Of a stretch of 64,000 nt of DNA, positions 17,751 through 58,336 are shown piece after piece (position 1 is the stretch's first letter; the number at the start of each line of letters is the position of its first letter). Origin of the DNA: a virus. Location of the stretch: the IMG/VR virus record IMGVR_UViG_3300042378_000602; one strand, written 5' to 3'. Position numbers and translations under genes: made by a program. Below the pieces are notes generated by a model. That model was not told where the DNA came from. It saw only the letters and a program-made list of their open reading frames with translations, and did not search any database.

Positions 17751-20700
17751 ATGGGAAAAAATATTTTAATTGTTCCGAGTAATTTCACTGAGAGGACTGC
17801 TAACCGTACTCCATTTATAAGTTATGAGGGTACCACGGGTCAGGTTATTCTGACGGTTACACCTTCAGGTAAAATTAAATTCAGCGGTAATACTGTTGGT
17901 GATACAAATTTGATGACAGTAGACCCTGCAAATTCTACAGTTTCAGTAAACACTATTTTTGTAGGAAATTACCTTGCAATAGGAGGGGTTCAGGTAATAA
18001 ATGCCACAAACAATTGGATTGGACCCACAACAGGTATAGCTGGTTCTCAGGGTGCAAAAGGATTCAACGGAAATACAGGTCCTACGGGTGCAATAGGTAA
18101 CACAGGAGCACAAGGTGCTATTGGTGCTGCAGGCGCCACAGGACCTCAAGGTGCTCAAGGTACATTTGGGCCTAAGGGTGCTCAAGGAACTGCCGGAGCA
18201 CAAGGAAATACGGGTGCTCAAGGTAACAATGGACCCAAGGGTGCCACAGGAGCACAAGGGTCAGCAGGTGCGCCAGGTAATACAGGTAACCCTGGACCTA
18301 CAGGACAAAGTGGACACCCTGGTCCACAAGGACCAACGGGAGCCGTTGGTAATACAGGAGCACAGGGTGCGATTGGGGTTACAGGACCCACAGGTAATAC
18401 AGGTGCTCAAGGACCTGTAGGACCAACAGGTGGACAAGGTGCTCAAGGACCACAAGGAGCTCAAGGTCCAAAAGGATTTTCAGGTGCACAAGGTGCAACA
18501 GGAAACACAGGTGGAACAGGACCCACAGGAAATACAGGACATCCTGGCGCTCAGGGTGCTACAGGAAATCCTGGACCTACGGGTGTCACAGGGTCTCAAG
18601 GAGCCGTTGGACCCACCGGTGCTATAGGAGCTCAAGGACCCAAAGGAGCACAAGGGAATACTGGAAACACAGGGGCACAAGGAGCCACAGGAAATCCTGG
18701 TCCACAAGGTTTCACAGGTAATGTTGGTGCGGTAGGGCCCACAGGTGCGATTGGTCCAAAGGGACCACAAGGACCTACAGGAAATACAGGTAATGTGGGA
18801 CCACAAGGTGCCACAGGTACCACAGGCCCAACAGGTGATACAGGAGCTACAGGACCTGCAGGACCACAAGGTGCTGTGGGACCAAAAGGAGACACAGGTA
18901 ATACGGGGGCTCAGGGTGCTGTGGGGCCACAAGGAGCAACTGGTCCGACAGGACTTTCAGGTGCTCAAGGTGCCCAAGGTGGGGTAGGACCGACAGGGGC
19001 TACAGGACCACAAGGAGCTCAAGGACCTGCGGGTAATACGGGTCATTCTGGTGCACAAGGTGCTACAGGACCAACAGGGCCTGGAGGTAACACAGGTGCT
19101 CAAGGGGCGGTTGGACCGAAAGGGGCTACAGGACCTCAGGGAGCTCAAGGACCCGCAGGTGGTACAGGTAACACAGGGGCTCAGGGTGCCACAGGACCAC
19201 AAGGTTCGCAAGGGGCGGGTGGTGGAACAGGTCATCCAGGTGCCCAAGGTCCCCAAGGAGCGATAGGACCACAAGGTTCACAAGGAGCCACAGGACACAC
19301 TGGTGCTCAAGGCCCACAAGGTGCCACAGGACCACAAGGCTCACAAGGGGCTACAGGACATCCTGGTGCCCAAGGTAGTCAGGGTGCGGCCGGACCAAAA
19401 GGACCTAATGGATTCACAGGTCATCCTGGAGCGCAAGGACCGCAAGGTTCAGCGGGAGCAACGGGTGCTCAAGGTCAGACAGGTCATCCGGGGGCACAAG
19501 GTGCAGGTGGACCTACTGGGTCTCAAGGACAAGGGGGTGGTACAGGACATCCTGGAGCTCAAGGTGCCATAGGACCCAAAGGACCTCAAGGACCTACAGG
19601 TGCTACTGGCCATCCTGGTGCTCAAGGTGCTGGTGGAGGTACTGGTAACGAGGGGGCACCAGGTTTCACAGGACATCCAGGTGCACAAGGTGCTACAGGA
19701 CCAGGAGGTAGTCCGGGTGCTCAGGGTTCACAAGGTTCCCAAGGACCTCAAGGAGCTCAAGGAAATACCGGTCCGACCGGCGTACCGGGAGCTACGGGGC
19801 ATCCTGGTGCTCAAGGAGCGGTCGGTCCAACTGGCCCACAAGGTCCGTCAGGTAATACAGGACATCCTGGTGCACAGGGAGCAACGGGTCCTACAGGACC
19901 TCAAGGAAATACAGGTGCCACGGGTGCTATTGGACCCCAAGGTGCGGGAGGTGCCACAGGCTCACAAGGGGCTGTAGGACCTCAAGGAGCAACTGGAGCC
20001 ACAGGAGCCCAAGGTCCACAAGGTCCAGGTGGTCCTACAGGACCTGGCGGGGCACAAGGTGCTCAAGGAGGAGGAGGTGCCACAGGACCTCAAGGACCAC
20101 AAGGTCCAAAGGGACCTCAGGGTGCTACAGGTCCTACAGGGGGTCCTGGTCCAACTGGACCACAAGGTCCTCAGGGACCAACAGGAGCACCTGGACCTAC
20201 AGGTGCCACAGGACCACAAGGTCCTACAGGTGGTCAAGGTACACAAGGCTCATTAGGTGCAACAGGAGGGCAGGGTGCTCAAGGTTCCCAAGGAGCTGTT
20301 GGACCTGGAGGTGTAACATGTCAACTGAATAGTATTATTGCTCTTACAGGAAGTAGAAACCCATGTGTAGGTGTTTGTAATATCACTGTACCCAACGTTT
20401 ATCCATACACTCAAACTGCTTACACAGCCACACAAAACAAATATTTCGATGCTACGAATTGTTCAAATGGTACTTGTGATTGGAATACTTATAACTGGGA
20501 ACAATGGAATAGTGCATGTTATTCATTAAACGCCACTTGTGGTAATGGTACCTATCAGCAGGCTTGTGCTTATTCTGACGTGAAACTTAAAACAGGTATT
20601 GAAACCTTGAAAGATTCTCTTATAAAAATATTGGAAATAGAAACTGTTGAGTATGATTGGAACGAAAAAAATTGGGGTACCAAAGAAGAGTATGAATATT

Positions 20701-20912
20701 TTGCTCAGATGGGAAGATTACATCAGATAGGTCTAATTGCACAAAACGTAAGAATTCATTTCCCTGAAGCTGTTGGAATCGGTCCTGATGGATATTATTA
20801 CATTGACTACAAGAAATTAAATTCTGTTGTAGTTGAAGGTATAAAAGAACAACAAGTATTTATTGAAGAGATAACTAAACAAGTAGACGAATTAGAAATT
20901 AAATTGAGATAA
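17751..20912 (+). CDS. collagen-like (Gly-X-Y) tail fibre protein with C-terminal intramolecular chaperone (peptidase S74) domain
   Basis: about 850 aa of uninterrupted GXY triplets (many [12 protein letters not shown]); Cys-rich module; C-terminus [12 protein letters not shown]...[13 protein letters not shown]... of the S74 type. Confidence 0.8.
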
Positions 20913-23896
20913 TGCCATCTAATGTAATTATATATCCTACCGGTAGAACGTGGAACACTGACCCTCATTTTATTTTTGATGATGGAACTAATAAATTACA
21001 ATTCAACGTTTTAACTGACGCAATAAGTCTGTCTGCTGGGTCAATTTCAAATAATTTTGTAATTGGTACAAAAGGTTCAGACAATGGTGTCACAACCTCA
21101 GGGGCTTCCGCACAGTCACTATATTTCAACGCCTCACAATTCATAGGTTCTGGAGGTGTTTGGGTCGGACCAACTGCCGGTATCGCTGGTGCTCAGGGAG
21201 CTCAAGGTGCTCAGGGAGCCCAAGGTGGTCAGGGAGCTCAAGGAGCTCAAGGTGCAAATACAGGAGCTCAAGGTGCTACAGGTGCCCAAGGAGCAACAGG
21301 CGCACAAGGTGCGGCAAACACAACACAAGGTGCTCAAGGTACAATTGGGTCTCAAGGAGCTCAGGGTGCCACAGGAGCTCAGGGTGGAAATACGGGTGCT
21401 CAAGGAGCCACAGGAGCTCAAGGTAACCAAGGAGCTCAAGGTGCTCAAGGAGGAACAGTTGGAGCTCAGGGTGCTCAGGGTGGTCAGGGAGCTCAAGGTG
21501 CTCAAGGTGCTCAAGGTGCAAACACAGGTGCTCAGGGTGCGACAGGTCCCCAAGGAGCCCAAGGAGCGGTAGGTGCTACAGGAGGAGTTCAAGGTGCTCA
21601 AGGTGCCGTCGGTGCCACAGGTGATTTAGGTGCTCAGGGAGCTCAAGGAGCCAATACCGGAGCCCAAGGTGCTCAAGGTGCACAGGGAACTCAAGGTGCA
21701 CAAGGTGCTCAGGGAGGAAATACTGGTGCACAAGGTGCTCAGGGTACTCAGGGTACACAAGGTGCTACAGGTGCTCAAGGAGGAGTACAAGGTGCTCAAG
21801 GTGCTATAGGTACTACAGGACCACAAGGTGCTCAAGGGGCCCAAGGGGCAAACACAGGAGCTCAAGGTGCTCAAGGTGGTCAAGGTGCTCAAGGAGCTCA
21901 AGGTGCTCAAGGAGGAGTACAAGGTGCTCAAGGGGCTACAGGTCCTACGGGGGTACAAGGAGCACAAGGTGCACAAGGAGGAGTACAAGGAGCACAAGGT
22001 GCAACAGGACCTCAAGGAGCTCAAGGGGCTCAGGGATTACAAGGTGGACTTCAAGGTGCCCAAGGTGCAACAGGTGCTCAAGGTGCACAAGGTTCTACAG
22101 GTGCTCAAGGAGGTACCCAAGGAGCTCAAGGTGCCACAGGACCACAAGGTGCACAAGGAGCAATAGGAGCTCAAGGAGGAGTACAAGGTGCTCAGGGTGC
22201 AACAGGAGCAGCGGGAGCTCAAGGTGCTCAAGGAGCCCAAGGTGCAAATACAGGTGCTCAAGGCGCCACAGGACCTCAAGGTGCTCAGGGGGCGACAGGA
22301 GCCCAAGGGGGTGTACAAGGTGCTCAAGGCGCCACAGGTCCTCAAGGTGCTCAAGGTGCTCAGGGGGCTCAAGGTGCAAATACAGGAGCTCAGGGTGCTA
22401 CAGGTCCTCAAGGTGCTCAAGGTGCTCAGGGAGCCCAGGGTGCCAGTCCAGGTGCTCAGGGCGCTCAAGGTCCAAAAGGACCTCAAGGTGCTCAAGGAGC
22501 CCAAGGTGGAAGTGCAGGTGCCACGGGTGCGCAAGGTGCAACAGGTCCTCAAGGAGCTCAAGGTGCCCAAAGTGGTATAACAGGACAGGCAGGAGCTCAG
22601 GGTGCTACAGGTCCCCAAGGGGCACAAGGTGCTCAAGGTGGAAGTGCCGGTGCTACAGGAGCAGTCGGTGCACAAGGAGCTACAGGAGCACAAGGAGCCC
22701 AAGGTGCTAATCAAGGAGCACAAGGTGCTACGGGTGCTACAGGAGCTCAAGGTGCTCAAGGTGCTCAAGGTGCTAATCAAGGAGCCCAAGGTGCGACAGG
22801 TCCACAAGGTGCTCAGGGTTCACAGGGTGCACAAGGTGCTAATCAGGGAGCACAGGGGGCTCAAGGAGCTCAAGGTGCTCAAGGTTCTCAGGGAGCACAA
22901 GGAGCCAATCAGGGTGCACAAGGTGCTACAGGTCCACAAGGTGCACAAGGTGCAATTGGACCAAATAATACGACACAAGGTGCTCAAGGTGCTCAGGGAG
23001 GTCAAGGTACTCAGGGAAGTCAAGGAGCACAGGGTGCTAACCAAGGCGCTCAAGGGGCACCTGGAGTTCAAGGAGCTCAAGGAGCACAAGGTGCACAGGG
23101 TGCTAATCAAGGGGCTCAGGGAGCACCTGGAGTTCAAGGTGCTCAAGGTGCTCAAGGTTCTCAAAGTGCTACTTCGGGAGCACAAGGTTCTACAGGACCT
23201 CAAGGTGCTCAAGGTTCTACAGGACCCGGTCCTGGTCCGCAAGGAGCCCAAGGTCCACAAGGATTGACTGGAGGTGGAGGGAACACAGGTGCACAAGGGT
23301 CCCAAGGAGCTACAGGAGCCACGGGTCCTACAGGTGCTCCTGGTGGAACAGGAGCCACAGGTGCTCAAGGAGCCACAGGATTTGCTGGAAGTACTCAGGG
23401 TGCTCCAGGTGTACCAGGACCACAGGGGGCTCAAGGTCCGACAGGTGTTGGTGGTGCCACAGGCCCAACAGGCCCAACAGGTTTCAAGGGGAATACAGGC
23501 CCAACAGGCCCAACAGGTGCCACAGGTGCTCAGGGAGCACAAGGCGCTAAGTCAGATAAAAGATTAAAAGATAATATAGTTGAATTCAAAGAACCTCTCA
23601 CCCGTCTGAAACAAATCCAAGGTGTTAAATTTACTTGGGACCATGAACATCCTAAAATTAAATTTCATAAGCACCTGAATGCTAAAGAAGCGTTCACAGG
23701 TGATACTTATGGATTCATAGCTCAAGATGTAGAAAAAGTATTTCCTGAGATTGTTGACACTGACCCAACTGATGGATACAAATCTATGGATTATGGACTC
23801 TTGGTTAGTTTAGCCTTCGCATCAATTAAAGAGAATCAAAAAAGAATATTGTCAGTGAAAGATAGAATAAATAGATTAAAACAAGTAGTGAACTAA
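20912..23896 (+). CDS. collagen-like tail fibre protein with C-terminal S74 intramolecular chaperone domain
   Basis: GAQGAQGAT-type triplets across about 800 aa; C-terminus [12 protein letters not shown]...[16 protein letters not shown]; start overlaps upstream stop (TAATG). Confidence 0.8.
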
Positions 23897-26800
23897 TGGC
23901 ATCATACGTAGTATATTCAGGGACGAGTTATCTAAATGCGTGTAATTCTGTGGCATCACAGACTATTTATACACCGTGTCCATCACTAAGTGGAGGTTGT
24001 GTAGTCTATACAGATGCAGGTTATACTAATGTTATTACTTTCTCTCCATTATTACCTAATTTATATCTAAAGGATTCTGTTGATACAACGGTTTGGAAGA
24101 TAAATAGGACAGGAACTGTCACGGAGGTTAGAAAATGTACTGAATTTTCAGGTGATGAAAATATAATTGTTTATCCTGATGGAGCCAATTTTCAACTTAT
24201 AGATTCTGGAGGAACTGCCACTAACTGGTATATGGAGAATGGTGAGTTGAAATTTGGAACTTTAACTTCCACTTTAGCAAGAATAAGTACTTCCTATCCA
24301 AACCTCAGAGTCAGTGGGGGGTCAATAACACTTACTAACAAACTTGCAAATGCCTCGGGAGATTTAATAAATTCAACAGGATGGGTCGGAGCTAAATTAC
24401 CTCAAGGTCCAACGGGTGCTCAAGGTTCACAAGGTTCTACTGGTGCTCAAGGAGCTCAAGGGGGTCAAGGAGCACAGGGTACCCAAGGTTCAACAGGTGC
24501 CCAAGGTTCTCAGGGTGCTCAAGGGGGACAAGGTGCTCAAGGTGCTCAAGGGTCACAAGGACCTACAGGTGCACAAGGTTCACAAGGTGGTCAAGGTTCA
24601 CAAGGCTCACAAGGTTTTACAGGTGCTCAGGGTTCACAAGGAGCTCAAGGAGGACAAGGTGCTCAGGGTTCACAAGGAACTTTGGGACCCACAGGAGCTC
24701 AAGGTTCTCAAGGTGGTCAAGGAGCCCAAGGAGCCCAAGGTTCAACAGGTGCTCAAGGTTCGCAAGGAGCACAGGGTGGACAGGGCGCTCAAGGTTCACA
24801 AGGGGCTAAAGGTCTCACAGGTGCTCAAGGGGCACAAGGTGGACAAGGTGCCCAAGGTGCTCAAGGTTCCCAAGGTACAACAGGAGCCCAAGGTTCCCAA
24901 GGGGGACAAGGTGCTCAAGGTGCTCAAGGCGCAGTTGGTCCTACAGGTGCTCAAGGAGCTCAGGGTGGACAAGGGGCTCAAGGAGCTCAAGGGGCTGTCG
25001 GTCTCACAGGAGCTCAAGGAGCTCAAGGTGGGCAAGGTGCTCAAGGAGCACAAGGGGCTCTCGGTCCTACAGGAGCTCAAGGTTCCCAAGGTGGACAGGG
25101 TGCTCAAGGAGCACAAGGTTCACAAGGTTTAACAGGTGCGCAAGGGTCCCAAGGTGGTCAAGGAGCTCAAGGAGCTCAGGGAGGACAAGGTGCTCAAGGT
25201 GCCCAAGGTCCTAAAGGTCCACAAGGTGCTCAAGGAGCCCAAGGTGCTCAAGGTTCAACAGGAGCCCAAGGTTCCCAAGGTGGAACAGGAGCCCAAGGTG
25301 CTCAAGGTTCAACAGGAGCCCAAGGTTCACAAGGTTCACAAGGTGGAACAGGAGCTCAAGGAGCCCAAGGTTCAACAGGAGCCCAAGGTGCTCAAGGTTC
25401 CCAAGGAGGACAAGGTGCCCAAGGGGCTCAAGGTACAACAGGTGCCCAAGGAGCTCAAGGAGCTACAGGAGGTCAAGGTGCTCAGGGTTCTCAAGGACCC
25501 ACAGGAGCCCAAGGTTCTCAAGGTGCCGGAGGAGGACAAGGTGCACAAGGAGCTCAAGGTATAGTTGGAGCCCAAGGTGCTCAAGGTGGAGGTGGAGGAC
25601 AGGGTGCACAAGGAGCACAAGGAACGACAGGTCCCGTAGGTGCACAAGGTTCACAAGGTGGGCAAGGTGCTCAAGGTTCCCAAGGTGCACAAGGTGCCAC
25701 AGGAGCTCAAGGTTCTCAGGGCGTCGCCGGAGCTCAAGGTGCTCAAGGTGCTCAAGGAGCTGTTGGTAGTCAAGGTTCACAAGGAGGACAGGGTGCACAA
25801 GGAGCTCAAGGTTCACAAGGAGCTCAAGGTGCAACTGGTCCTGGTGGCGGACAAGGTGCTCAGGGAGCACAAGGAGCCACAGGTTCACAAGGTGCTCAAG
25901 GTGGAGGTGGTGGACAAGGTGCCCAAGGTGCTCAAGGGCCCGTCGGTTCACAAGGTTTTCAAGGAACAACTGGAGGTCAAGGTGCACAAGGTGCGCAAGG
26001 ACCTACTGGACCTACAGGTATCACAGGACCTAAAGGGGGTCAAGGTGCACAAGGTGCTCAGGGAGGACAAGGTGCACAGGGACCACAAGGTCATATCGGT
26101 GCAAACGGTGCAACTGGTGTTCCTGGTCCTATTGGTCCCAAAGGACCTACGGGTCCTACGGGAGGTCAAGGTGCTCAAGGAGCTCAAGGACCTGGTGGTG
26201 CTCAAGGGGCTCAAGGTCCTACGGGAGGTCAAGGTTCCCAAGGTGGAGGAGGAGCTCAAGGGGCTCAGGGTCCAACAGGACCTGGAGGTGCTCAAGGTGC
26301 TCAAGGAGCTCAAGGTCCCAAAGGTCCAATAGGTGGACAAGGTTCTCAAGGTCCCACAGGGGCTCAGGGTACCGCCGGAGGACAAGGTTCTCAAGGCGGT
26401 GGTGGTGCCCAAGGTGCTCAAGGTGCTCAAGGTCCGCAAGGAGGCCAAGGTGCTCAAGGCGGTGGTGGTGCCACAGGAGCTCAAGGACCTCAGGGGGGTC
26501 AAGGTGCCCAAGGACCACAAGGTGGTCAAGGTCCACAAGGTGCACAAGGTGCAACCGGTCCAAATGGTTTACAAGGTGCTCAAGGTGCACAAGGTACCAC
26601 TGGTTCTGACCTAAGATTAAAAAAGGACGTAAAAGAAATACAATCCCCACTAGAAAAAGTCCTGAAATTGAGAGGTGTTTCATTCTATTGGAATAAATTA
26701 AATGATGAAACATCCCAATCAGGTAAACATGATATTGGATTCATTGCCCAAGAAATAGGTCATATATTACCTGAATTGGTTTTCAAGAAAAACACCGAGA

Positions 26801-26940
26801 ACGCATATTTCATGGTAAAATATGCTGAAGTAATAGCTGTTTGTTTAGAAGCCATTAAAGAACAATCCTTGATTTTGGAATCTAAAGAAATAAAACTTGA
26901 TGAGTTAGAGACAATAGCCAAGGAAAGAGGACTTATTTAG
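23896..26940 (+). CDS. collagen-like tail fibre protein with C-terminal S74 intramolecular chaperone domain
   Basis: 165-aa unique N-terminus, then GAQGSQG triplets; C-terminus [12 protein letters not shown]...[16 protein letters not shown]; start overlaps upstream stop. Confidence 0.8.
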
Positions 26941-35644: not shown

Positions 35645-36009
35645 TGAAGAAAATTGTCAGACTTACCGAAACAGATTTGGAAAGAATCGTAACAAGGGTT
35701 ATAAATGAACAAAATGAAACAAGAAGTTTCATTAGAGCAATACAAAGATTTTTAATTGATAAAAAAATTACCGGAGACAATAAAAAACCTCTAACCGTTG
35801 ACGGTAGAACTGATAATAATTTGACCTCTCAAACGGCACAGGCAATATCAAAATACCAATCTATGATAGGAGTTTATCCTGCGGATGGAGTTTGGGAAAT
35901 AAATACTTGGGAGAAAATGCCGAAGGAAGACCAAAAAAAGTTAAAAAAACTGATGGCTGAAGAAGGTGACATTTTCGATAAATTCTTACATTGGATGGGT
36001 TGGGATTGA
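35644..36009 (+). CDS. putative peptidoglycan-binding domain protein
   Basis: LTVDGRTDNNLTSQTAQAISKYQSMIGVYPADGV resembles PG_binding_1 (L..DG.FG..T..AV..FQ...GL..DG). Confidence 0.4.
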   Translation: MKKIVRLTETDLERIVTRVINEQNETRSFIRAIQRFLIDKKITGDNKKPLTVDGRTDNNLTSQTAQAISKYQSMIGVYPADGVWEINTWEKMPKEDQKKLKKLMAEEGDIFDKFLHWMGWD

Positions 36010-37403
36010 TGAAAAAAATTTTAAAAGAAACAGGTATAAGAGACATTTCGGCTTTGAGGAAGAGATATCCCAAAGCCGAAATTTATTTTCACCAAGACTT
36101 AGACGGTGTCACTACCGCTATAGCGATGAAAAAATATCTTGAGGACAATGGGATTGAAGTTGTTGGTGCACATATAATTCAATATGGTGACAAAGAGTTT
36201 GCTGTAAAAAAAAATGATGCCGAAGGTGACACGATGCCTGTGCTAGTCGATTTTGCTCACGGGAAGCCGATGTTTAAAATTCACACGGACCACCACGATA
36301 AACAAGTTGGTGCTGAAAAAGAAACATCCAAATCATTTAGACAAGCTCGTTCTAACGTTGAAACAATATCTCAAATTGTTTCACCTAAAGATTTATTTCC
36401 ATCTTCAGACATACGTCTGATAAGCACTGTTGATTCTGCAGATTTCGCTAGAAATGAAATTACTCCCGAGGATGTAATAAATTACATTTTTAGATTTGAT
36501 AAAGAGAAACCTCTACAAAAGAACAAAATGCTTTTGGGATTGGTTATAAATAAACTTATTTTAGCCTTCAAGAACAGACGTGGGTTTATGGAAAATCTTG
36601 TAATGGATTCTGAGCCATCTCTGCTTTCGATTCTCACGAACATAAGAAAGTGGATGAAAGAAACAGGGGCTGAACAACCCGAAAAATTACAATCCCATTC
36701 TCAAGATTATTCACAAAGAATGAAATCTTATCATGGTTTGGAAGTAGATGGGAGTATTTTAACTCAGTACGGTGGTGGGGATATGAGGAAAGCAGGTTCC
36801 TATGACAGATACACCCCTTTCAAGAACAATCCTGATGCGGATTTTTTGATTATGATTTGGCCTATGGGATTGTTACAAGTTTCGTGTAATCCATTCAAAA
36901 AAGATAGAGAACTCAAAGGTGTGAATCTCGGTGAAATTGCACAAGAGGTTTTATCAAAATGGAAAGATAAATTACAATCAAGGGTAATACCCTTATCAAC
37001 AATCAAATGGATTAGTGAAACTTCGGTGAACCCTGAAAGTGTAGGTTTCACATTTAAAGATTTTGATGCTCTTTATGGTGGTAAAATTCAATATATGCAA
37101 GGTGGTAAAGAAATTTTGTCACAAATAAAGGAAATGATGAACAAACCTTTTGTTAAACTTACGGATGAAGAAAAAAATATTTTAGACAAATTAGGAATCA
37201 ATGCTTGGGAACTACTTCAGTCCATGTCAGGTGGACATAAATGTATTACAAACATAAGTGGTTTAAATTATTTAGGTAGAAGTAAGAGACCGCCTCAAGG
37301 GAACTATAGATGGGACCCTGAAAAGGAAGATGCTCCATACATTAAATTTCTTAAAATGTTAGCATCAGAATTCAAAAAAACATTGAAATCCAAAATTCAC
37401 TAA
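35991..37403 (+). CDS. DHH-family phosphoesterase (NrnA / pAp-phosphatase-like)
   Basis: motif I HQDLDGVTTA, motif II PVLVDFAHG, motif III KIHTDHHD. Confidence 0.6.
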   Translation: MDGLGLMKKILKETGIRDISALRKRYPKAEIYFHQDLDGVTTAIAMKKYLEDNGIEVVGAHIIQYGDKEFAVKKNDAEGDTMPVLVDFAHGKPMFKIHTDHHDKQVGAEKETSKSFRQARSNVETISQIVSPKDLFPSSDIRLISTVDSADFARNEITPEDVINYIFRFDKEKPLQKNKMLLGLVINKLILAFKNRRGFMENLVMDSEPSLLSILTNIRKWMKETGAEQPEKLQSHSQDYSQRMKSYHGLEVDGSILTQYGGGDMRKAGSYDRYTPFKNNPDADFLIMIWPMGLLQVSCNPFKKDRELKGVNLGEIAQEVLSKWKDKLQSRVIPLSTIKWISETSVNPESVGFTFKDFDALYGGKIQYMQGGKEILSQIKEMMNKPFVKLTDEEKNILDKLGINAWELLQSMSGGHKCITNISGLNYLGRSKRPPQGNYRWDPEKEDAPYIKFLKMLASEFKKTLKSKIH

Positions 37404-37438
37404 AATGGTTAGAATTTCTGACTAAAATCTTCAAAAGA

Positions 37439-37789
37439 TTATCTTATTACATAATCCACCCTATCACCTTCATTGATATCTAAATCCCAACAGGTCCCAC
37501 CCTGAACCTCGAACACAACATTTCCAGGACCACAATAAGACATACAATCATCCTCTTCACAAGGAGGACAATCGTGATGAATTTTTGTTATAATATTATC
37601 TTTGATTATTATAATATCCAAATCAATAATACAATTTTTCATCCAAAAACATTGTTCCTTTCCACCCATAAGAAATAACAATCCCTGAAAATCATCATCA
37701 AATACTTTTCCCATCATCCCTTTCATTTGAGATTTTTTATCCAACAAAACCTTTGATTTAAATTCGTTATTTTTTATCTTTACAATCAT
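37439..37789 (-). CDS. hypothetical Cys-rich protein
   Basis: minus-strand ORF with CPPCEEDDC and HHDC motifs. Confidence 0.4.
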   Translation of the reverse strand: MIVKIKNNEFKSKVLLDKKSQMKGMMGKVFDDDFQGLLFLMGGKEQCFWMKNCIIDLDIIIIKDNIITKIHHDCPPCEEDDCMSYCGPGNVVFEVQGGTCWDLDINEGDRVDYVIR

Positions 37790-37803
37790 ATTTAATAAAT
37801 ACT

Positions 37804-38214
37804 ATGAAAAAAAGTTATGCGGGTGTAGTGGTAAAACACAAAAAGAAAATTTTATTTTGTAAAAGAAGTTCTAAAGTAGATTATCCAGGTGTTTGGTCAA
37901 TTCCTGGAGGTACAATGGAGGAAGGCGAGTCTCCCATCCAAACAGCACGTAGAGAGTTTTTTGAAGAAATGGCTGTTGACATAGATAGTGAAACATTGAA
38001 CAAAGTTGGTGTAATTCCAAGATATTCGAGAGACGGTAAGAAGTTGAAGGGTCAGATGCATGTCTTTGAGACAGAACCAATTGAAAAACTCATTCCTGAT
38101 TTATCAATTGCGATTGACGGTGAAGAACATACTGAATGTGGTTATTATACTCTCGAAGAAATGCCACCTTCCAAAATTGGAGAGAACCTATACAATCTTT
38201 TAAAAAATATGTGA
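37804..38214 (+). CDS. Nudix hydrolase
   Basis: Nudix box GGTMEEGESPIQTARREFFEEMAV (GG-x5-E-x7-REuxEExGu). Confidence 0.85.
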   Translation: MKKSYAGVVVKHKKKILFCKRSSKVDYPGVWSIPGGTMEEGESPIQTARREFFEEMAVDIDSETLNKVGVIPRYSRDGKKLKGQMHVFETEPIEKLIPDLSIAIDGEEHTECGYYTLEEMPPSKIGENLYNLLKNM

Positions 38215-38488
38215 TATGATTTGGTATATGATTGTTGGTTTAGTTTTCACAGGTATTGTAATTTGGTTTGAGTTACGTGAAGAAAAAGAAAAAAATCTTT
38301 GAAAAAATATTTTCACCAAAGGTTACTTTTTTCACTTTTCGGTATATTTATATGTTCTTACCCGAAAGGGTGAACATCCCCACAGATTCAAGTTTTCAAC
38401 CGAGAGGTTGGTAAAAAAACCTGAATCATACGAGACAGAAAAAGTCTCAAAAAAAGTCCCACAAGTTTGGTGTTTCAAAAAAATGTCT

Positions 38489-38496
38489 TATCTTTG
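38489..38496 (+). promoter_or_regulatory. Bacteroidetes-type promoter (-7 TATCTTTG, -33 TTG at 38467-38469)
   Basis: TAnnTTTG with about 20-nt spacer; roughly 100 nt upstream of the tRNA-like element; 3' arm of the 10-bp inverted repeat 38455-38464/38494-38503 overlaps it. Confidence 0.5.
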
Positions 38497-38599
38497 TGGG
38501 ACTTTATTATCAAAAGAAGTTCTTTAACATATTTCTACTCAAGGTTCAACCAGAGCATGACTTGGATGGTGACACGGGGACTTGAGTAGTTTTATTATA

Positions 38600-38672
38600 G
38601 GGCGAGCGGGAGGTAAGGTATCTCATTGGTCTCATAAGCCAATTGAACTTGGTTCAATTCCAAGGCGTCGCA
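38600..38672 (+). tRNA. tRNA-Met(CAU)-like element with imperfect acceptor stem (possible pseudo-tRNA or tRNA-like domain)
   Basis: T-arm cttgg-ttcaatt-ccaag; anticodon arm ttggt-cTCATaa-gccaa (U33, CAT, A37); 5-nt variable loop; G18G19 in D-loop; acceptor pairs only 4-6 bp (gcga(g)cg vs gcgtcgc). Confidence 0.4.
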
Positions 38673-38679
38673 ACAATAC

Positions 38680-39820
38680 AGGTGAAGACTGTGGTGGAAC
38701 CCCACGGTATATGAATCCCAAAGACGCCGTCTTGATTCGCGGTATCAGAGCGGGGAGGGTATAGTTACTATAAGTCAGGAGTAATTAACCAACGACGAAA
38801 ATGTAACCACCAATGTAGGAATATGTTGGTCATGATGTACAAAAGGGTACAAAAAGCCTGTAAATTTTTTATAAAAAACTCTTATAAAATTTGACAGTCT
38901 GAAAATGACTTCTTATCTTTGTAAGACAATTGAGGGAAATCGTTTCCGAATGTTCGGAGTAAAGATATTTCGGTTTCCTTCAATCTTTGATAGTTCTTTG
39001 ATTCAAGATATTGGCCGCCTATGGTCGTTAAATAAACTACGAAAGTAGTATAAAGTAGGAACCCCTGGTTTGGTGGTTCCCGCGGTTTCCAAAAGGGAGC
39101 TCGAGTAGGCAAGCAGGATATCACAACACCTTTAGTACCGAGGGTAACACTGTAGGGAACGTGGTGTGGTGACCAAGCGATTCGGGTCGTTTGGTTGAGG
39201 TCGGAAGACCAACAAGAATCACCTGTAGAATCGATGTAAGAAGTGGTAGTATCCACTGTCACAATTGCGTCATTCAATATCAAAGTTGACTTAAAAACCG
39301 AAAGGTAAGTTTTATTACAGGTGGTGCTGATAGAACCTTAGCAAATGCTCTACCAAGAGGTCTGTTATGAAGTTGACTCGAAGTATGGAGGTGGGGACAC
39401 TTCAGAGGGTAGTTTAGTATCGGGTCGTTCAAAAGATGACTTGGCTTCAGACGGGCCACTACCTTCATAATCCGTAAACCAACTTTGGTCTATGCAATGT
39501 CCAAAACATTAATTAAATCAAGGAAAAGTGCTCGTCAGTTGTGTGTGACAGGTCACTACATAGTAATGAGATGTTCATTGCCGTGAAGGGTCCCAAGCCC
39601 GACACGATTTTCACGAAAGTTCTCTAATCCCGCAAGGATGAATTGGCTCGGCAGGGTCGAAGAGTGATGAGTAATGGGAGAGTTGCAGACAACTTCAGGA
39701 TTGGTTAATCTAATTGACCGTGACTGAGAGTTACTTCTCAAAAGGAAGTGGAAACAGAGGGAACCAAATAATCCTCCTAAAGACTCTTGTCAAGACTTGT
39801 ATTCTCAGAGTTTTCGCCTA
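38680..39820 (+). ncRNA. large GC-enriched structured non-coding region (candidate ornate large ncRNA, GOLLD/ROOL-like, or unknown ribozyme/intron-like RNA)
   Basis: about 1.1 kb with no credible ORF; GC clearly above the window average; many local hairpins with GNRA-like loops (for example ggtcGGAAgacc); internal promoter at 38914; strong terminator at 39821-39852; next to the tRNA-like element. Confidence 0.4.
38914..38921 (+). promoter_or_regulatory. Bacteroidetes-type promoter (-7 TATCTTTG, -33 TTGACA at 38891-38896) inside the non-coding region
   Basis: TAnnTTTG with 20-nt spacer to TTGACA. Confidence 0.45.
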
Positions 39821-39852
39821 ACCCTGACCGTCTCTACGGTTGGGGTTTTTTA
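39821..39852 (+). terminator. intrinsic terminator (10-bp stem with G-U pairs plus U-tract)
   Basis: accctgaccg-tctcta-cggttggggt plus tttttt; ends the non-coding transcript, abuts the stop of minus-strand gene 39854-41062. Confidence 0.6.
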
Positions 39853-39853
39853 T

Positions 39854-41062
39854 TTAACAAGGGTATGGTCCTGAAACAACCGTAACAGCACCAATAGTAA
39901 CTGTATATCCACTTCCATCCGTACATATGGTGAGCTGTCCACTAAATGTTTGTGTAAAATAACTACCACCACAATCGAACCATTCTATTGATGCACTTCC
40001 ACCACCAGCATCCAATACATAACCAACACACGTAGAAGGTGTTATTGATGGAGTTGGAGTTACTGTCGGTGTTTCGGCTGGAGTACCTGTATTTGTTGGA
40101 GTGACGGGTGGAGTCGTTGGCGGAGTAGCGGTATTTGTAGGTGTCGTAGTATTTGTTGGGGTCACTGTGGGAGTTGTAGTATTAGTGGGAGTTACCGAAG
40201 GTGTAGGTCCAATCGTTGGGGTAACAGAAGGAGTTTGAGTTTGTGTTGCGGTGACTGACGGGGTTGGTGTAGATGTTCTAGTCGGGGTTGGAGTTGCGGT
40301 TGCTTGGCTTGTAGGAGTTGGTGTCGGAATGTTTGCATTTGTAAGTTCACAAAGACTAATTCTTACACCGCCATATTGTATACTTGGTGGAGATGAAAAT
40401 GTTATTTCTGTGAAAGGGGAAGTTGATTGAACTAAAAATCTTGCTAATCCATCAGTATTTACCGCTGTGATTGTACCGTTGTTGATATTGAAATTACAAC
40501 CTGTACATTGAGTTATTATTGGAGTTTGAGAATTGTTTAAAGTTATGGTAACTCTATCTCCATTCGGGAAAGCATCACCATTCCAAACACCTGAATTGAA
40601 CATCAATGATGAGATGGCTTGACTAAATCTAAAAGTAACAGTTGCACCTGACCCGAAAGACACGACACCAGTTCCTGGTCCAGGTTTTATTGTAATTGGG
40701 ATTTCTTGACAAGAGTAGTTGTTTGGACCATAGGTAAATGTATTAGTTGAACATACTGAGTTAAAAGTATAACCAGTTATTTGTATACCATTACTTGTTA
40801 CCACTTGACCATTACAAGGGGTATTTATTACATTACATGTAGGACAATTATTCAAATCCCTTTGAAACCATTCTTCACTAATTACTAAAGAATTTTCGTA
40901 GAAATTACTTAAAGAGAAGGTATCGTAAATTGCCCAAACATTTTTTGTTTGATTTGGTAAGAGTGGGACTTGGTTTTCAAATTCGCTTGAATCACATTTT
41001 CTATAACTAAATGTTACAAGAGTGTTACCCGTGTTGGTTAGAGTATATTTTTTACAATTCAC
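39854..41062 (-). CDS. hypothetical protein with Thr/Pro-rich linker (probable surface/structural or host-interaction protein)
   Basis: central 90 aa TPTPTSQATATPTPTRTSTPTPSVTATQTQTPSVTPT... linker between two Cys-containing globular parts. Confidence 0.55.
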   Translation of the reverse strand: MNCKKYTLTNTGNTLVTFSYRKCDSSEFENQVPLLPNQTKNVWAIYDTFSLSNFYENSLVISEEWFQRDLNNCPTCNVINTPCNGQVVTSNGIQITGYTFNSVCSTNTFTYGPNNYSCQEIPITIKPGPGTGVVSFGSGATVTFRFSQAISSLMFNSGVWNGDAFPNGDRVTITLNNSQTPIITQCTGCNFNINNGTITAVNTDGLARFLVQSTSPFTEITFSSPPSIQYGGVRISLCELTNANIPTPTPTSQATATPTPTRTSTPTPSVTATQTQTPSVTPTIGPTPSVTPTNTTTPTVTPTNTTTPTNTATPPTTPPVTPTNTGTPAETPTVTPTPSITPSTCVGYVLDAGGGSASIEWFDCGGSYFTQTFSGQLTICTDGSGYTVTIGAVTVVSGPYPC

Positions 41063-41456: not shown

Positions 41457-41510
41457 ACACTCTTAAATATATTGAAAAAACAATTTTTTGTTTAGTTCGT
41501 TAAAATTTTT

Positions 41511-41518
41511 TATCTTTG
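41511..41518 (+). promoter_or_regulatory. Bacteroidetes-type promoter (-7 TATCTTTG, -33 TTG at 41488-41490)
   Basis: TAnnTTTG, 20-nt spacer; ATG 41535. Confidence 0.5.
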
Positions 41519-45671: not shown

Positions 45672-45700
45672 AAAAAATTTGTTGGTTTGATGGAATAGTC

Positions 45701-45708
45701 TATCTTTG
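45701..45708 (+). promoter_or_regulatory. Bacteroidetes-type promoter (-7 TATCTTTG, -33 TTG near 45679-45684)
   Basis: TAnnTTTG; ATG 45729. Confidence 0.55.
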
Positions 45709-46435: not shown

Positions 46436-46461
46436 TTTTTTGTTGGTAACAAATATATCCC

Positions 46462-46469
46462 TATCTTTG
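46462..46469 (+). promoter_or_regulatory. Bacteroidetes-type promoter (-7 TATCTTTG, -33 TTG near 46440-46445)
   Basis: TAnnTTTG; lies inside the track ORF 46440, so the true start is ATG 46491. Confidence 0.55.
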
Positions 46470-58304: not shown

Positions 58305-58328
58305 TTTGATAAATTGGTTTTATTTTAA

Positions 58329-58336
58329 TATCTTTG
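58329..58336 (+). promoter_or_regulatory. Bacteroidetes-type -7 element TATCTTTG
   Basis: 17 nt upstream of ATG 58353. Confidence 0.45.

What the first reader, a model, noticed from the sequence alone, without database searches (positions are those of the whole stretch)
38680..39852. About 1.1 kb GC-enriched, ORF-free, hairpin-dense region with its own promoter and terminator next to a tRNA-like element: candidate large structured ncRNA
This is the only long stretch in the window without a credible ORF. The three minus-strand ORFs reported there have no start context and abnormal composition. Its GC content is visibly higher than the surrounding AT-rich DNA. It contains numerous short perfect hairpins, several with GNRA-type loops (for example ttgaggtcGGAAgaccaacaa at about 39195-39216; gtggtggaaccccac at about 38690). 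A host-type promoter sits at 38891-38921 (TTGACA, 20 nt, TATCTTTG). A strong intrinsic terminator sits at 39821-39852. The upstream tRNA-like element has its own promoter at 38467-38496. Large ornate ncRNAs (GOLLD, ROOL) are characteristically found in phage genomes next to tRNA genes. This locus has the same architecture but I cannot assign it to a known class by eye.
Basis: partly seen in the sequence, partly recalled or inferred. Interest (0 to 1): 0.7.

Follow-up and report, generated by a model that had tools for sequence, protein, structure and literature searches.

The report
Phage GOLLD RNA plus unclassified small RNA
The flagged non-coding stretch is a phage RNA gene cluster whose main part is a new copy of GOLLD, a known giant RNA that builds hollow RNA-only cages, and it is preceded by a separate 185-base structured RNA that matches no catalogued family.

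Summary
Window 39405-39811 matches the Rfam GOLLD model over its full length (314.7 bits against a gathering score of 150, E=3e-89). The 5' half (39011-39404), which Rfam does not model, aligns with the 5' cap domain of env-38, the cryo-EM GOLLD. Covariation across 28 sequences supports its fold: 96.7% of cells are paired, against 38-44% in the slid controls.

GOLLD here is its own transcription unit. It has a Bacteroidota-type promoter (38890-38921) that is conserved in 7 of 7 close relatives. It also has a variable leader of about 85 nt and an intrinsic terminator (39820-39853). Most residues that bridge subunits in the solved 14-mer cage are retained.

Window 38676-38863 is a separate 185-nt structured RNA, "element B". 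It occurs in 36 viral contigs, always inside tRNA arrays. It has no Rfam match and shows good covariation.

The upstream "tRNA-like element" belongs to a widespread non-canonical tRNA(CAU)-like class that recurs next to GOLLD.

Protein-coding and junk-DNA readings are rejected.

Verdict: a new member of a known kind. The biological function of GOLLD remains unknown. Element B is the part that may be new.

The parts
38466..38496 (+). Promoter of the upstream RNA unit: -33 TTTG, a 19-nt spacer, then the -7 box TATCTTTG. The predicted start is about 38501.
   Evidence: Motif match and enrichment. The same region is 80% similar in L003 and L030 and is present in syntenic L067. The -7 box spans -12 to -5 according to PMC9723704.
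38535..38589 (+). Leader hairpin holding a conserved 22-nt core, AACCAGAGCATGACTTGGATGG (38548-38569). Its function is unknown.
   Evidence: Fold (the z-score of -0.65 is not significant on its own). The core is identical in L004 and L067 although the flanks differ.
38602..38672 (+). Non-canonical tRNA(CAU)-like RNA. It has a full cloverleaf, but the 5' acceptor strand is one nucleotide shorter than the 3' strand. No CCA is encoded.
   Evidence: Rfam tRNA 33.1 bits; ARAGORN finds nothing. The same class occurs in 100 viral stretches, with covariation in the acceptor and T stems. It is on the same strand as GOLLD in 19 of 19 co-occurrences.
38676..38863 (+). Element B: an unclassified structured RNA of about 185 nt, with a closing stem and at least five hairpins. 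Invariant blocks are GGAGTAATTAACC and ATGATGT.
   Evidence: Own covariance model scores 205.9 bits, E=1e-48, single copy. 36 viral loci. 99.1% of cells pair against 35-44% when slid, and 19 of 36 pairs show compensatory changes. No Rfam hit at E<=5 or E<=10. 88.6% identical to L067, against 69-73% for the flanking genes.
38890..38921 (+). GOLLD promoter: -33 TTTG(ACA), a 20-nt spacer, then the -7 box TATCTTTG. The predicted start is about 38926.
   Evidence: The -7 box is conserved at the same place in 7 of 7 close relatives.
38926..39010 (+). GOLLD 5' leader with a long hairpin (38929-38984). It is present in some relatives and short or absent in others, and it is not part of the solved env-38 construct.
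   Evidence: Fold at -22.8 kcal/mol, z=-1.98. Leader length varies in alignment A8. The env-38 alignment starts at 39012.
39011..39404 (+). GOLLD 5' domain, the 'cap' of the cage, of the env-38 subtype. It includes the B1 GAAA loop (39041-39046), the B2 GAGGGUAAC (39141-39149), the B3 CGGAAG loop (39203-39208), a short hairpin with a GAAA loop (39306-39309) aligned where env-38 has a longer insert, and the B5 GGU/UACCA (39323-39325 and 39351-39355).
   Evidence: Full-length alignment with env-38. 28-sequence alignment with 111 pairs, 75 of them with compensatory changes. Controls. Bridge mapping.
39405..39811 (+). GOLLD conserved 3' domain, the 'ring' of the cage. The variable A-rich linker lies at about 39470-39520 and holds no embedded tRNA.
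   Evidence: Rfam RF02032 at 314.7 bits (gathering score 150), E=3e-89, model positions 1-416 of 416. Residues of B6, B8, B9 and B10 are retained. No tRNA is found inside.
39820..39853 (+). Intrinsic terminator: a 12-bp stem with 6 G-C pairs and a 4-nt loop, followed by a T-run. The convergent minus-strand gene ends at 39854.
   Evidence: Terminator scan; ORF list.

Best explanation
The interval holds two separate phage RNA genes, which sit downstream of a third.

(a) The upstream unit. A promoter at 38466-38496 drives a non-canonical tRNA(CAU)-like RNA (38602-38672). Directly behind it lies a 185-nt structured RNA of unknown class, element B (38676-38863). In other phages element B sits inside tRNA arrays, a few nucleotides from the neighbouring tRNAs. 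It is therefore most likely released by the same end-processing that matures the tRNAs. This processing step is inferred.

(b) GOLLD. A second promoter of the Bacteroidota sigma-A type (38890-38921, start about 38926) drives a GOLLD RNA. The transcript has an optional leader of about 85 nt, a 5' cap domain (39011-39404), a conserved 3' ring domain (39405-39811) and an intrinsic terminator (39820-39853). The primary transcript would be about 925 nt.

What is shown: family membership, the domain structure and the conservation of the promoter.

What is inferred by homology: the RNA aligns residue for residue with env-38 GOLLD, whose cryo-EM structure is a hollow D7 14-mer. It keeps most of the residues that form the inter-subunit bridges. 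It therefore most likely self-assembles into the same kind of RNA-only nanocage during infection.

What is unknown for the whole family: what the cage does. The most likely role, suggested by its constant company of tRNA-type genes, is in handling tRNA or the translation machinery late in infection. This last step is speculation.
For: - Rfam GOLLD scores 314.7 bits against a gathering score of 150, over the full model.
- The RNA aligns with env-38 over its full length.
- The 5' domain has 111 predicted pairs, 75 with compensatory changes. 96.7% of cells pair against 37.5-44.2% when slid. 597 cells have double changes against 70-103. No shuffle of 500 reaches the observed values.
- Bridge residues of B1, B2, B3, B5, B6, B8, B9 and B10 are largely retained, and several are invariant in 26 sequences. 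Residue lists come from Supplementary Table 2 of PMC12286853.
- The promoter motif is enriched, 16 against 4.8 expected. It is conserved upstream of GOLLD in 7 of 7 relatives.
- The terminator is detected.
- 33 related loci all pair this 5' domain with an Rfam-type 3' domain.
- Syntenic relative L067 keeps the same order, and its RNA genes are more conserved than the flanking coding DNA.
- Element B is a separate unit. It occurs in 36 loci, of which only 8 also have GOLLD in the fetched DNA. It always lies on the tRNA strand, 1-8 nt after a tRNA or tmRNA. Its covariation passes the controls.
- The context is phage DNA.
Against: - There are no expression data, so the transcript ends are predicted only.
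- The B4 kissing loop keeps only a 3-bp core (UCC:GGA) in the window.
- The hairpin carrying the GAAA loop is much shorter than in env-38.
- Stoichiometry is known to change with 5'-domain details: 12-mer for S. agalactiae and 14-mer for env-38 (PMC12990946). The number of subunits therefore cannot be asserted.
- The text copy of the env-38 sequence had lost about 18 nt. Residue numbering was mapped with local offsets and is approximate in places.
- The function of GOLLD, of element B and of the odd tRNA-like RNA is unknown.
Confidence: 0.9

Rival explanations
1. The region encodes one or more proteins with unusual starts, for example the 133-aa minus-strand ORF at 38882-39283.
For: An open frame of 133 aa exists on the minus strand. 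tblastx between the window and L067 gives hits here.
Against: There is no Pfam match for any of the four ORFs at E<=1, apart from one 11.8-bit chance hit. The 133-aa frame is interrupted in 24 of 26 homologous sequences. The tblastx hits occur in several frames on both strands, as expected from nucleotide conservation alone. Substitutions follow base-pairing and not codons.
Confidence: 0.01
2. The whole interval 38680-39852 is one continuous ncRNA of about 1.2 kb, with element B as an extra 5' domain of GOLLD.
For: Element B and GOLLD are adjacent and on the same strand in the window and in L067. There is no strong terminator between them, only a T-run at 38866-38871. Read-through from the upstream promoter is therefore possible.
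Against: A conserved promoter lies between the two. Element B occurs without GOLLD in 28 of 36 loci, flanked tightly by tRNAs. Most GOLLD loci have no element B. The solved env-38 RNA needs nothing upstream of the position matching 39012 to form the cage (PMC12286853).
Confidence: 0.04
3. The stretch is decaying junk or captured host DNA without function.
For: None, beyond the lack of ORFs.
Against: Identity to the syntenic relative is higher in the RNA genes (88.6% and 79.7%) than in the neighbouring protein genes (69-73%). Compensatory substitutions are massive. The sequence matches a curated RNA family. Element B is absent from 185,579 species-representative genomes, apart from one 740-bp contig.
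Confidence: 0.005
4. The RNA is a GOLLD by sequence but acts as a monomer or in a ribonucleoprotein, for example bound to ribosomes or as a precursor or storage form for the neighbouring tRNA-like RNA. Under this reading it does not act as an empty cage.
For: Function is unknown for the whole family. Ribosome binding in pull-downs and tRNAs embedded in the linker of some GOLLDs are reported (PMC12286853; PMC12990946). A non-canonical tRNA(CAU)-like gene abuts the GOLLD 3' end in 11 loci and lies upstream in 6 more, always on the same strand.
Against: Three independent GOLLDs multimerise in vitro at nanomolar concentrations (PMC12286853). The bridge residues are conserved here and in 26 relatives, which is hard to explain unless the contacts are selected. 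The two readings are not mutually exclusive.
Confidence: 0.2

Closest known systems
GOLLD RNA (Rfam RF02032), specifically the env-38 subtype solved by cryo-EM (PDB 9MEE; Kretsch et al. 2025, PMC12286853)
   Same: The 3' domain matches the full model. The 5' domain is homologous helix by helix. Most bridge residues are retained. The size of the core (about 805 nt) is similar. It sits in a phage next to a Met-type (CAU) tRNA gene. It is non-coding.
   Different: It has its own promoter and an optional leader hairpin of about 85 nt that is absent from the env-38 construct. The hairpin carrying the GAAA loop is shorter. The B4 kissing loop is reduced to 3 bp. The host is probably Bacteroidota, judged from promoter type, whereas the name-giving members come from Lactobacillales and lakes. 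The tRNA-like neighbour is separated from GOLLD by another RNA gene.
ROOL RNA (Rfam RF03087)
   Same: It is also a large ornate phage or prophage RNA near tRNA islands that forms an RNA-only cage (PMC12286853).
   Different: Its sequence and fold are unrelated. There was no ROOL hit in the window at the gathering threshold, or at E<=5 over 38250-39900.
Phage T4 rnaC and rnaD (species 1 and 2 RNAs), as an analogue for element B only
   Same: They are small stable RNAs of unknown function encoded inside a phage tRNA cluster, directly abutting a tRNA gene (annotation of AF158101).
   Different: They show no detectable similarity in sequence or profile to element B. Their sizes differ (139 and 119 nt against about 185 nt). 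The resemblance is one of genomic position only.
Canonical elongator or initiator tRNA-Met and tRNA-Ile2 (anticodon CAU), for the tRNA-like gene
   Same: It has a cloverleaf with D, anticodon and T arms, a CUCAUAA anticodon loop and a UUCAAUU/UUCGAUU T-loop.
   Different: The acceptor stem is asymmetric, with 1-2 unpaired bases in the 3' strand, and this is conserved in 60 distinct sequences. ARAGORN rejects 73 of 98 copies. GenBank annotates the Aeromonas phage copy as a pseudo-tRNA.

Membership tests
GOLLD RNA (RF02032) | Match to the conserved 3'-domain covariance model at or above the curated gathering score | tested here: met
   314.7 bits against 150, E=3e-89, model positions 1-416 of 416, window 39405-39811.
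GOLLD RNA (RF02032) | A large 5' domain upstream of the conserved 3' domain, giving a total of about 800 nt, with a structured fold supported by covariation | tested here: met
   Window 39011-39404 aligns with env-38 residues ~3-420. 111 pairs, 75 of them compensatory. 96.7% of cells pair against about 40% in the slid controls.
GOLLD RNA (RF02032) | Non-coding: no conserved reading frame | tested here: met
   ORFs are not conserved in 24 of 26 relatives and have no Pfam hit.
GOLLD RNA (RF02032) | Phage or prophage location, typically beside tRNA genes | tested here: met
   Tail-fibre PHROGs and other phage genes are present in the window. A tRNA-like gene lies 340 nt upstream. Relatives sit beside tRNA-Met, tmRNA or tRNA arrays.
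GOLLD RNA (RF02032) | Residues that form the inter-subunit bridges of the solved cage (B1-B10 of env-38) | tested here: met
   The principal residues of B1, B2, B3, B5, B6, B8, B9 and B10 are retained. B7 is kept as G:C plus G:U. B4 keeps only a 3-bp core. The mapping uses local numbering offsets.
GOLLD RNA (RF02032) | Self-assembly into a homo-oligomeric RNA-only nanocage | not testable with these tools
   This needs mass photometry or cryo-EM of the transcript. It is inferred here from homology only.
GOLLD RNA (RF02032) | Expression that rises during phage lytic growth | not testable with these tools
   No transcript data are available. Only a promoter and a terminator are predicted.
Any Rfam 15 family (for element B, 38676-38863) | A covariance-model match, even a weak one | tested here: not met
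   No hit overlaps element B at E<=5 in the window, or at E<=10 in four other loci that carry both sequence subtypes.
Canonical tRNA (for 38602-38672) | Cloverleaf that reaches the Rfam tRNA gathering score | tested here: met
   33.1 bits against 29.
Canonical tRNA (for 38602-38672) | Regular 7-bp acceptor stem | tested here: not met
   The 5' strand has 6 nt and the 3' strand has 7 nt, leaving G68 unpaired (alignment). The same asymmetry is seen in 60 distinct homologues. ARAGORN finds no tRNA.

The most novel reading that the evidence does not exclude
Element B (38676-38863) is an undescribed class of structured phage RNA that lives inside tRNA arrays and is matured like a tRNA. In addition, the non-canonical tRNA(CAU)-like RNA is a dedicated partner of GOLLD, as cargo, as an assembly or processing handle, or as a decoy, and not an ordinary decoding tRNA. 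Together they would give the first concrete molecular companions for the GOLLD cage, whose function is still unknown.
Probability: 0.4. Interest if true: 0.6.

Novelty: new member of a known kind. Interest (0 to 1): 0.35.

Why it matters
GOLLD is one of very few natural RNAs known to build a closed, protein-free cage, and nobody knows what the cage is for. This copy adds little to the definition of the family, but it is a clean experimental handle. It has a self-contained promoter-to-terminator unit of the same subtype as the solved structure. It sits in a phage related to ~640 kb huge phages, and its host is probably in the Bacteroidota.

The by-products may matter more. A non-canonical tRNA(CAU)-like RNA sits on the same strand as GOLLD in 19 of 19 co-occurrences, and in 11 of them it is fused to GOLLD's 3' end. 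A well-conserved, phage-restricted 185-nt RNA with no known family is embedded in tRNA arrays. Both point to tRNA biology as the place to look for GOLLD's function.

Tried and rejected
- **ARAGORN on the window** found no tRNA or tmRNA. The tRNA-like gene is visible only to Rfam, or to ARAGORN at a relaxed threshold.
- **blastn of the region against 50,697 phage records** found only two huge uncultured phages and a short tRNA-like match. Element B alone found nothing.
- **Genome-collection scan for element B** gave 27 pattern hits, but about 70 are expected by chance for 17 specified bases in 596 Gb. The profile confirmed only one, on a 740-bp contig.
- **T4 rnaC and rnaD as homologues of element B**: no similarity.
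- **Literature search for a tRNA-array-embedded phage RNA**: nothing was found. The 2023 catalogue of viral candidate RNAs could not be checked, because its supplements are not held.
- **Readings of element B by eye** as a k-turn or C/D-like motif, a hammerhead core, a T-box-like UGGN loop, RNase P conserved regions, an SRP domain IV or a start-stop mini-ORF were all considered. They were dropped because the required pairings conflict with the covariation-supported helices, or because the key bases are not conserved. These remain untested impressions.
- **The env-38 sequence copied from the PDF supplement** is 815 nt instead of 833. Direct residue numbering failed and had to be replaced by local offsets.
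- **The leader hairpin upstream of the tRNA-like gene** is not significantly stable by itself (z=-0.65).

Full report
**1. What is at the coordinates**

The interval 38680-39852 has no conserved reading frame and is richer in G+C than most of its surroundings: 0.43-0.46 against 0.28-0.39. The ORF lister gives only short frames plus one 133-aa minus-strand ORF. A gathering-threshold scan of the whole 64-kb window against Rfam 15 returned two hits. One is GOLLD (RF02032) at 39405-39811 on the plus strand, at 314.7 bits against a gathering score of 150, E=3e-89, covering model positions 1-416 of 416. The other is a weak tRNA hit at 38602-38672, at 33.1 bits against 29. A permissive scan (E<=5) of 38250-39900 added nothing credible. 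ARAGORN finds no tRNA or tmRNA anywhere in the window.

**2. Extent of the GOLLD RNA**

The Rfam model covers only the conserved 3' half of the family. To define the 5' half I looked for relatives.
- blastn against phage records found two uncultured huge phages of 635 and 642 kb (LR745206.1 and LR756502.1) with similarity to 39097-39329. Both carry an Rfam-grade GOLLD 3' domain just downstream, at 287 and 275 bits.
- A 5'-domain block, GAGCTCGAGTANGCAAG, retrieved 31 IMG/VR contigs. All of them align with the window from about 38990-39013 to about 39814, and those tested with Rfam have the 3' domain.
- The sequence of env-38, the GOLLD solved by cryo-EM (PDB 9MEE), was taken from Supplementary Table 4 of PMC12286853. 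It aligns with the window over its whole length, from 39012 to about 39812.

The window RNA is therefore of the same 5'-domain subtype as the solved structure.

**3. Structure test of the 5' domain**

I aligned 28 distinct 5' domains: the window, env-38 and 26 loci (A5).
- RNAalifold predicts 111 pairs, of which 75 keep pairing through changes on both sides.
- In the pair count, 96.7% of cells form standard pairs, against 37.5-44.2% when the 3' partners are slid by 1-3 columns.
- 597 cells carry double changes, against 70-103 in the slid controls.
- None of 500 column shuffles reaches any observed measure.

This establishes a conserved fold for 39011-39404 and the window's membership in it.

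**4. Transcription signals**
This is the -33/-7 architecture of Bacteroidota sigma-A promoters. The TAnnTTTG box spans -12 to -5 in Flavobacterium psychrophilum start-site maps (PMC9723704), which predicts a start near 38926.
- The motif TTTG-N17-22-TAnnTTTG occurs 16 times in the window against 4.8 expected, and 0 of 100 shuffles reach 16.
- All seven closest relatives keep a TTGA...TA..TTTG promoter immediately upstream of GOLLD, while the sequence between promoter and core varies in length. The leader of about 85 nt (38926-39010), with its hairpin at 38929-38984, is therefore an optional appendage.
- The terminator is a 12-bp stem (39820-39847) followed by a T-run. A convergent minus-strand gene ends at 39854.

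**5. Does it keep the contacts that build the cage?**

Supplementary Table 2 of PMC12286853 lists the residues of the ten inter-subunit bridges of the env-38 14-mer. The text copy of env-38 is 815 nt instead of 833. I therefore assigned local numbering offsets from all the residues named in the paper's tables, and mapped them through a 26-sequence full-length alignment.

Retained in the window:
- B1: the GAAA loop (39041-39046) and its UAGUAAUGAG receptor (39561-39570).
- B2: GAGGGUAAC (39141-39149), of which the named bridge residues (G140-G142, A145 and C146) are invariant in 26 sequences.
- B3: the CGGAAG loop (39203-39208).
- B5: GGU and UACCA, with the named bridge residues invariant.
- B6: CAAAAG.
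- B8 and B9: the GC self-pairs (39632-39633 and 39651-39652).
- B10: A39740 and A39741.
- B7 is kept as G:C plus G:U.

Weakened or different:
- B4 keeps only a UCC:GGA core.
- The hairpin carrying the conserved GAAA loop is shorter than in env-38.

Published work shows that stoichiometry depends on such 5' details: 12-mer for the S. agalactiae RNA and 14-mer for env-38 (PMC12990946). I infer cage formation but not the subunit number.

**6. The first 190 nt belong to another gene**

Window 38687-38856 matched a place in locus L010 that lies inside a tRNA array, far from that contig's GOLLD.
- The block TAAGTNNGGAGTAATTAAC retrieved 36 viral stretches.
- They align over about 185 nt, with sharp edges and a covarying closing stem.
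- The consensus fold has 36 pairs in 8 helices, 19 of them with compensatory changes. 99.1% of cells pair against 35-44% when slid, and 99 cells have double changes against 1-14.
- A covariance model built from 28 sequences scores the window copy (38676-38863) at 205.9 bits, E about 1e-48. It finds no second copy in the window, in the other GOLLD loci, in T4 or in Aeromonas phage Akh-2.
- Element B always lies on the tRNA strand, starting 1-8 nt after a tRNA or tmRNA and often ending 3-11 nt before the next tRNA. Only 8 of the 36 loci have GOLLD in the DNA fetched.
- It has no Rfam match at E<=5 or E<=10 and no blastn match in 50,697 phage records.
- It has one confirmed copy among 185,579 species genomes, on a 740-bp contig.
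- I found no description of it in the literature. I could not check the 2023 catalogue of viral candidate RNAs, because its supplements are not held.

Its function is unknown. From its position I infer that it is cut out by the enzymes that mature the flanking tRNAs, as is accepted for T4's rnaC and rnaD (my own knowledge). It shares no sequence with those RNAs.

**7. The tRNA-like gene**

The Rfam alignment shows a complete cloverleaf with anticodon CAU, but only six nucleotides in the 5' acceptor strand against seven in the 3' strand.
- A 28-base core of this gene occurs exactly in 100 viral stretches.
- In 60 distinct sequences the asymmetry is kept while the paired positions covary.
- ARAGORN calls only 25 of 98 copies, and GenBank labels the Aeromonas phage copy a pseudo-tRNA.
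- These loci usually contain no other tRNA (median 0). Even so, 19 of 98 contain GOLLD, always on the same strand. In 11 the tRNA-like gene abuts the GOLLD 3' end, and in 6 it lies 640-736 nt upstream. In the window it is about 400 nt upstream.
- Among the first 34 GOLLD loci, about a dozen have a tRNA-Met(CAT) call within about 430 nt upstream or immediately downstream.
- The published env-38 also lies downstream of a Met-tRNA (PMC12286853).

**8. Context and relatives**
- The window is phage DNA, with collagen-like tail-fibre proteins and a NUDIX hydrolase.
- The genes just upstream are a DHH-like protein, a DUF192 protein and the NUDIX enzyme.
- The DHH-like protein has full-length homologues only in the two ~640 kb phages that carry the same GOLLD subtype.
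- Contig L067 is syntenic from the DHH gene to the end of GOLLD. Nucleotide identity is 69-73% over the protein genes, 88.6% over element B and 79.7% over GOLLD. L067 has an extra canonical tRNA-Met between the odd tRNA-like gene and element B.
- A 22-nt motif in the leader of the upstream unit (38548-38569) is identical in L067 and L004.

**9. Rivals**
- Protein coding is rejected. There is no family match, and the long frame is broken in 24 of 26 relatives.
- Junk or captured DNA is rejected by the covariation and by conservation above that of the neighbouring genes.
- A single 1.2-kb RNA is unlikely. A conserved promoter separates the two parts, and they are distributed independently. Read-through cannot be excluded without transcript data.

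**10. Verdict**

For GOLLD itself it is ordinary in the sense that it adds a copy and not a concept. What is not ordinary is that the family's function remains open, and that this locus brings out two companions. One is an unclassified tRNA-array RNA. The other is a non-canonical tRNA(CAU)-like RNA linked to GOLLD.

Noticed in passing
window 38602-38672; also L004 5459-5529 (-), L067 8964-9034, and loci L098 onward: A widespread non-canonical tRNA(CAU)-like class whose acceptor stem is asymmetric, with the 5' strand one nucleotide shorter than the 3' strand. It occurs in 100 viral stretches and is usually solitary. It lies on the same strand as GOLLD in 19 of 19 co-occurrences and abuts GOLLD's 3' end in 11 of them. 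ARAGORN misses most copies, and GenBank labels the Aeromonas phage copy a pseudo-tRNA.
   Followed up: partly
window 38548-38569 (within hairpin 38535-38589); L067 8907-8928; L004 3883-3904 (-): A 22-nt sequence, AACCAGAGCATGACTTGGATGG, is identical in three otherwise diverged loci. It lies in the leader of the tRNA-like unit in the window and L067, and downstream of GOLLD in L004. Its function is unknown.
   Followed up: partly
window 35991-38214: A DHH-like phosphoesterase (weak Pfam hit, 19.7 bits), a DUF192 protein and a NUDIX hydrolase lie directly upstream of the RNA gene cluster, and they are syntenic in L067. The DHH-like protein has full-length homologues only in two ~640 kb uncultured huge phages that carry the same GOLLD subtype. 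T4 also has a NUDIX gene (nudE) near its tRNA cluster.
   Followed up: partly
window-wide, e.g. 41487-41518, 45678-45708, 46439-46469, 58305-58336: Promoter-like TTTG-N17-22-TAnnTTTG sites, many of them with the TATCTTTG box, are three times more frequent than expected. This suggests a host in the Bacteroidota, whose sigma-A uses this consensus.
   Followed up: partly
L005, L006, L022, L023, L025, L027, L031, and L039, L045, L053, L064: Several related phage contigs encode a tmRNA immediately upstream of GOLLD or of element B. In four loci element B starts within 1-44 nt of the tmRNA's 3' end. The window itself has no tmRNA.
   Followed up: no
window 39854-41062 (-): The 402-aa protein that converges on the GOLLD terminator has a long Thr/Pro-rich linker (the G+C-rich stretch 40050-40350) and no Pfam or PHROG match.
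   Followed up: no
window 17751-26940: Three consecutive ~1000-aa ORFs. The first matches many tail-fibre PHROGs through collagen-like repeats.
   Followed up: no
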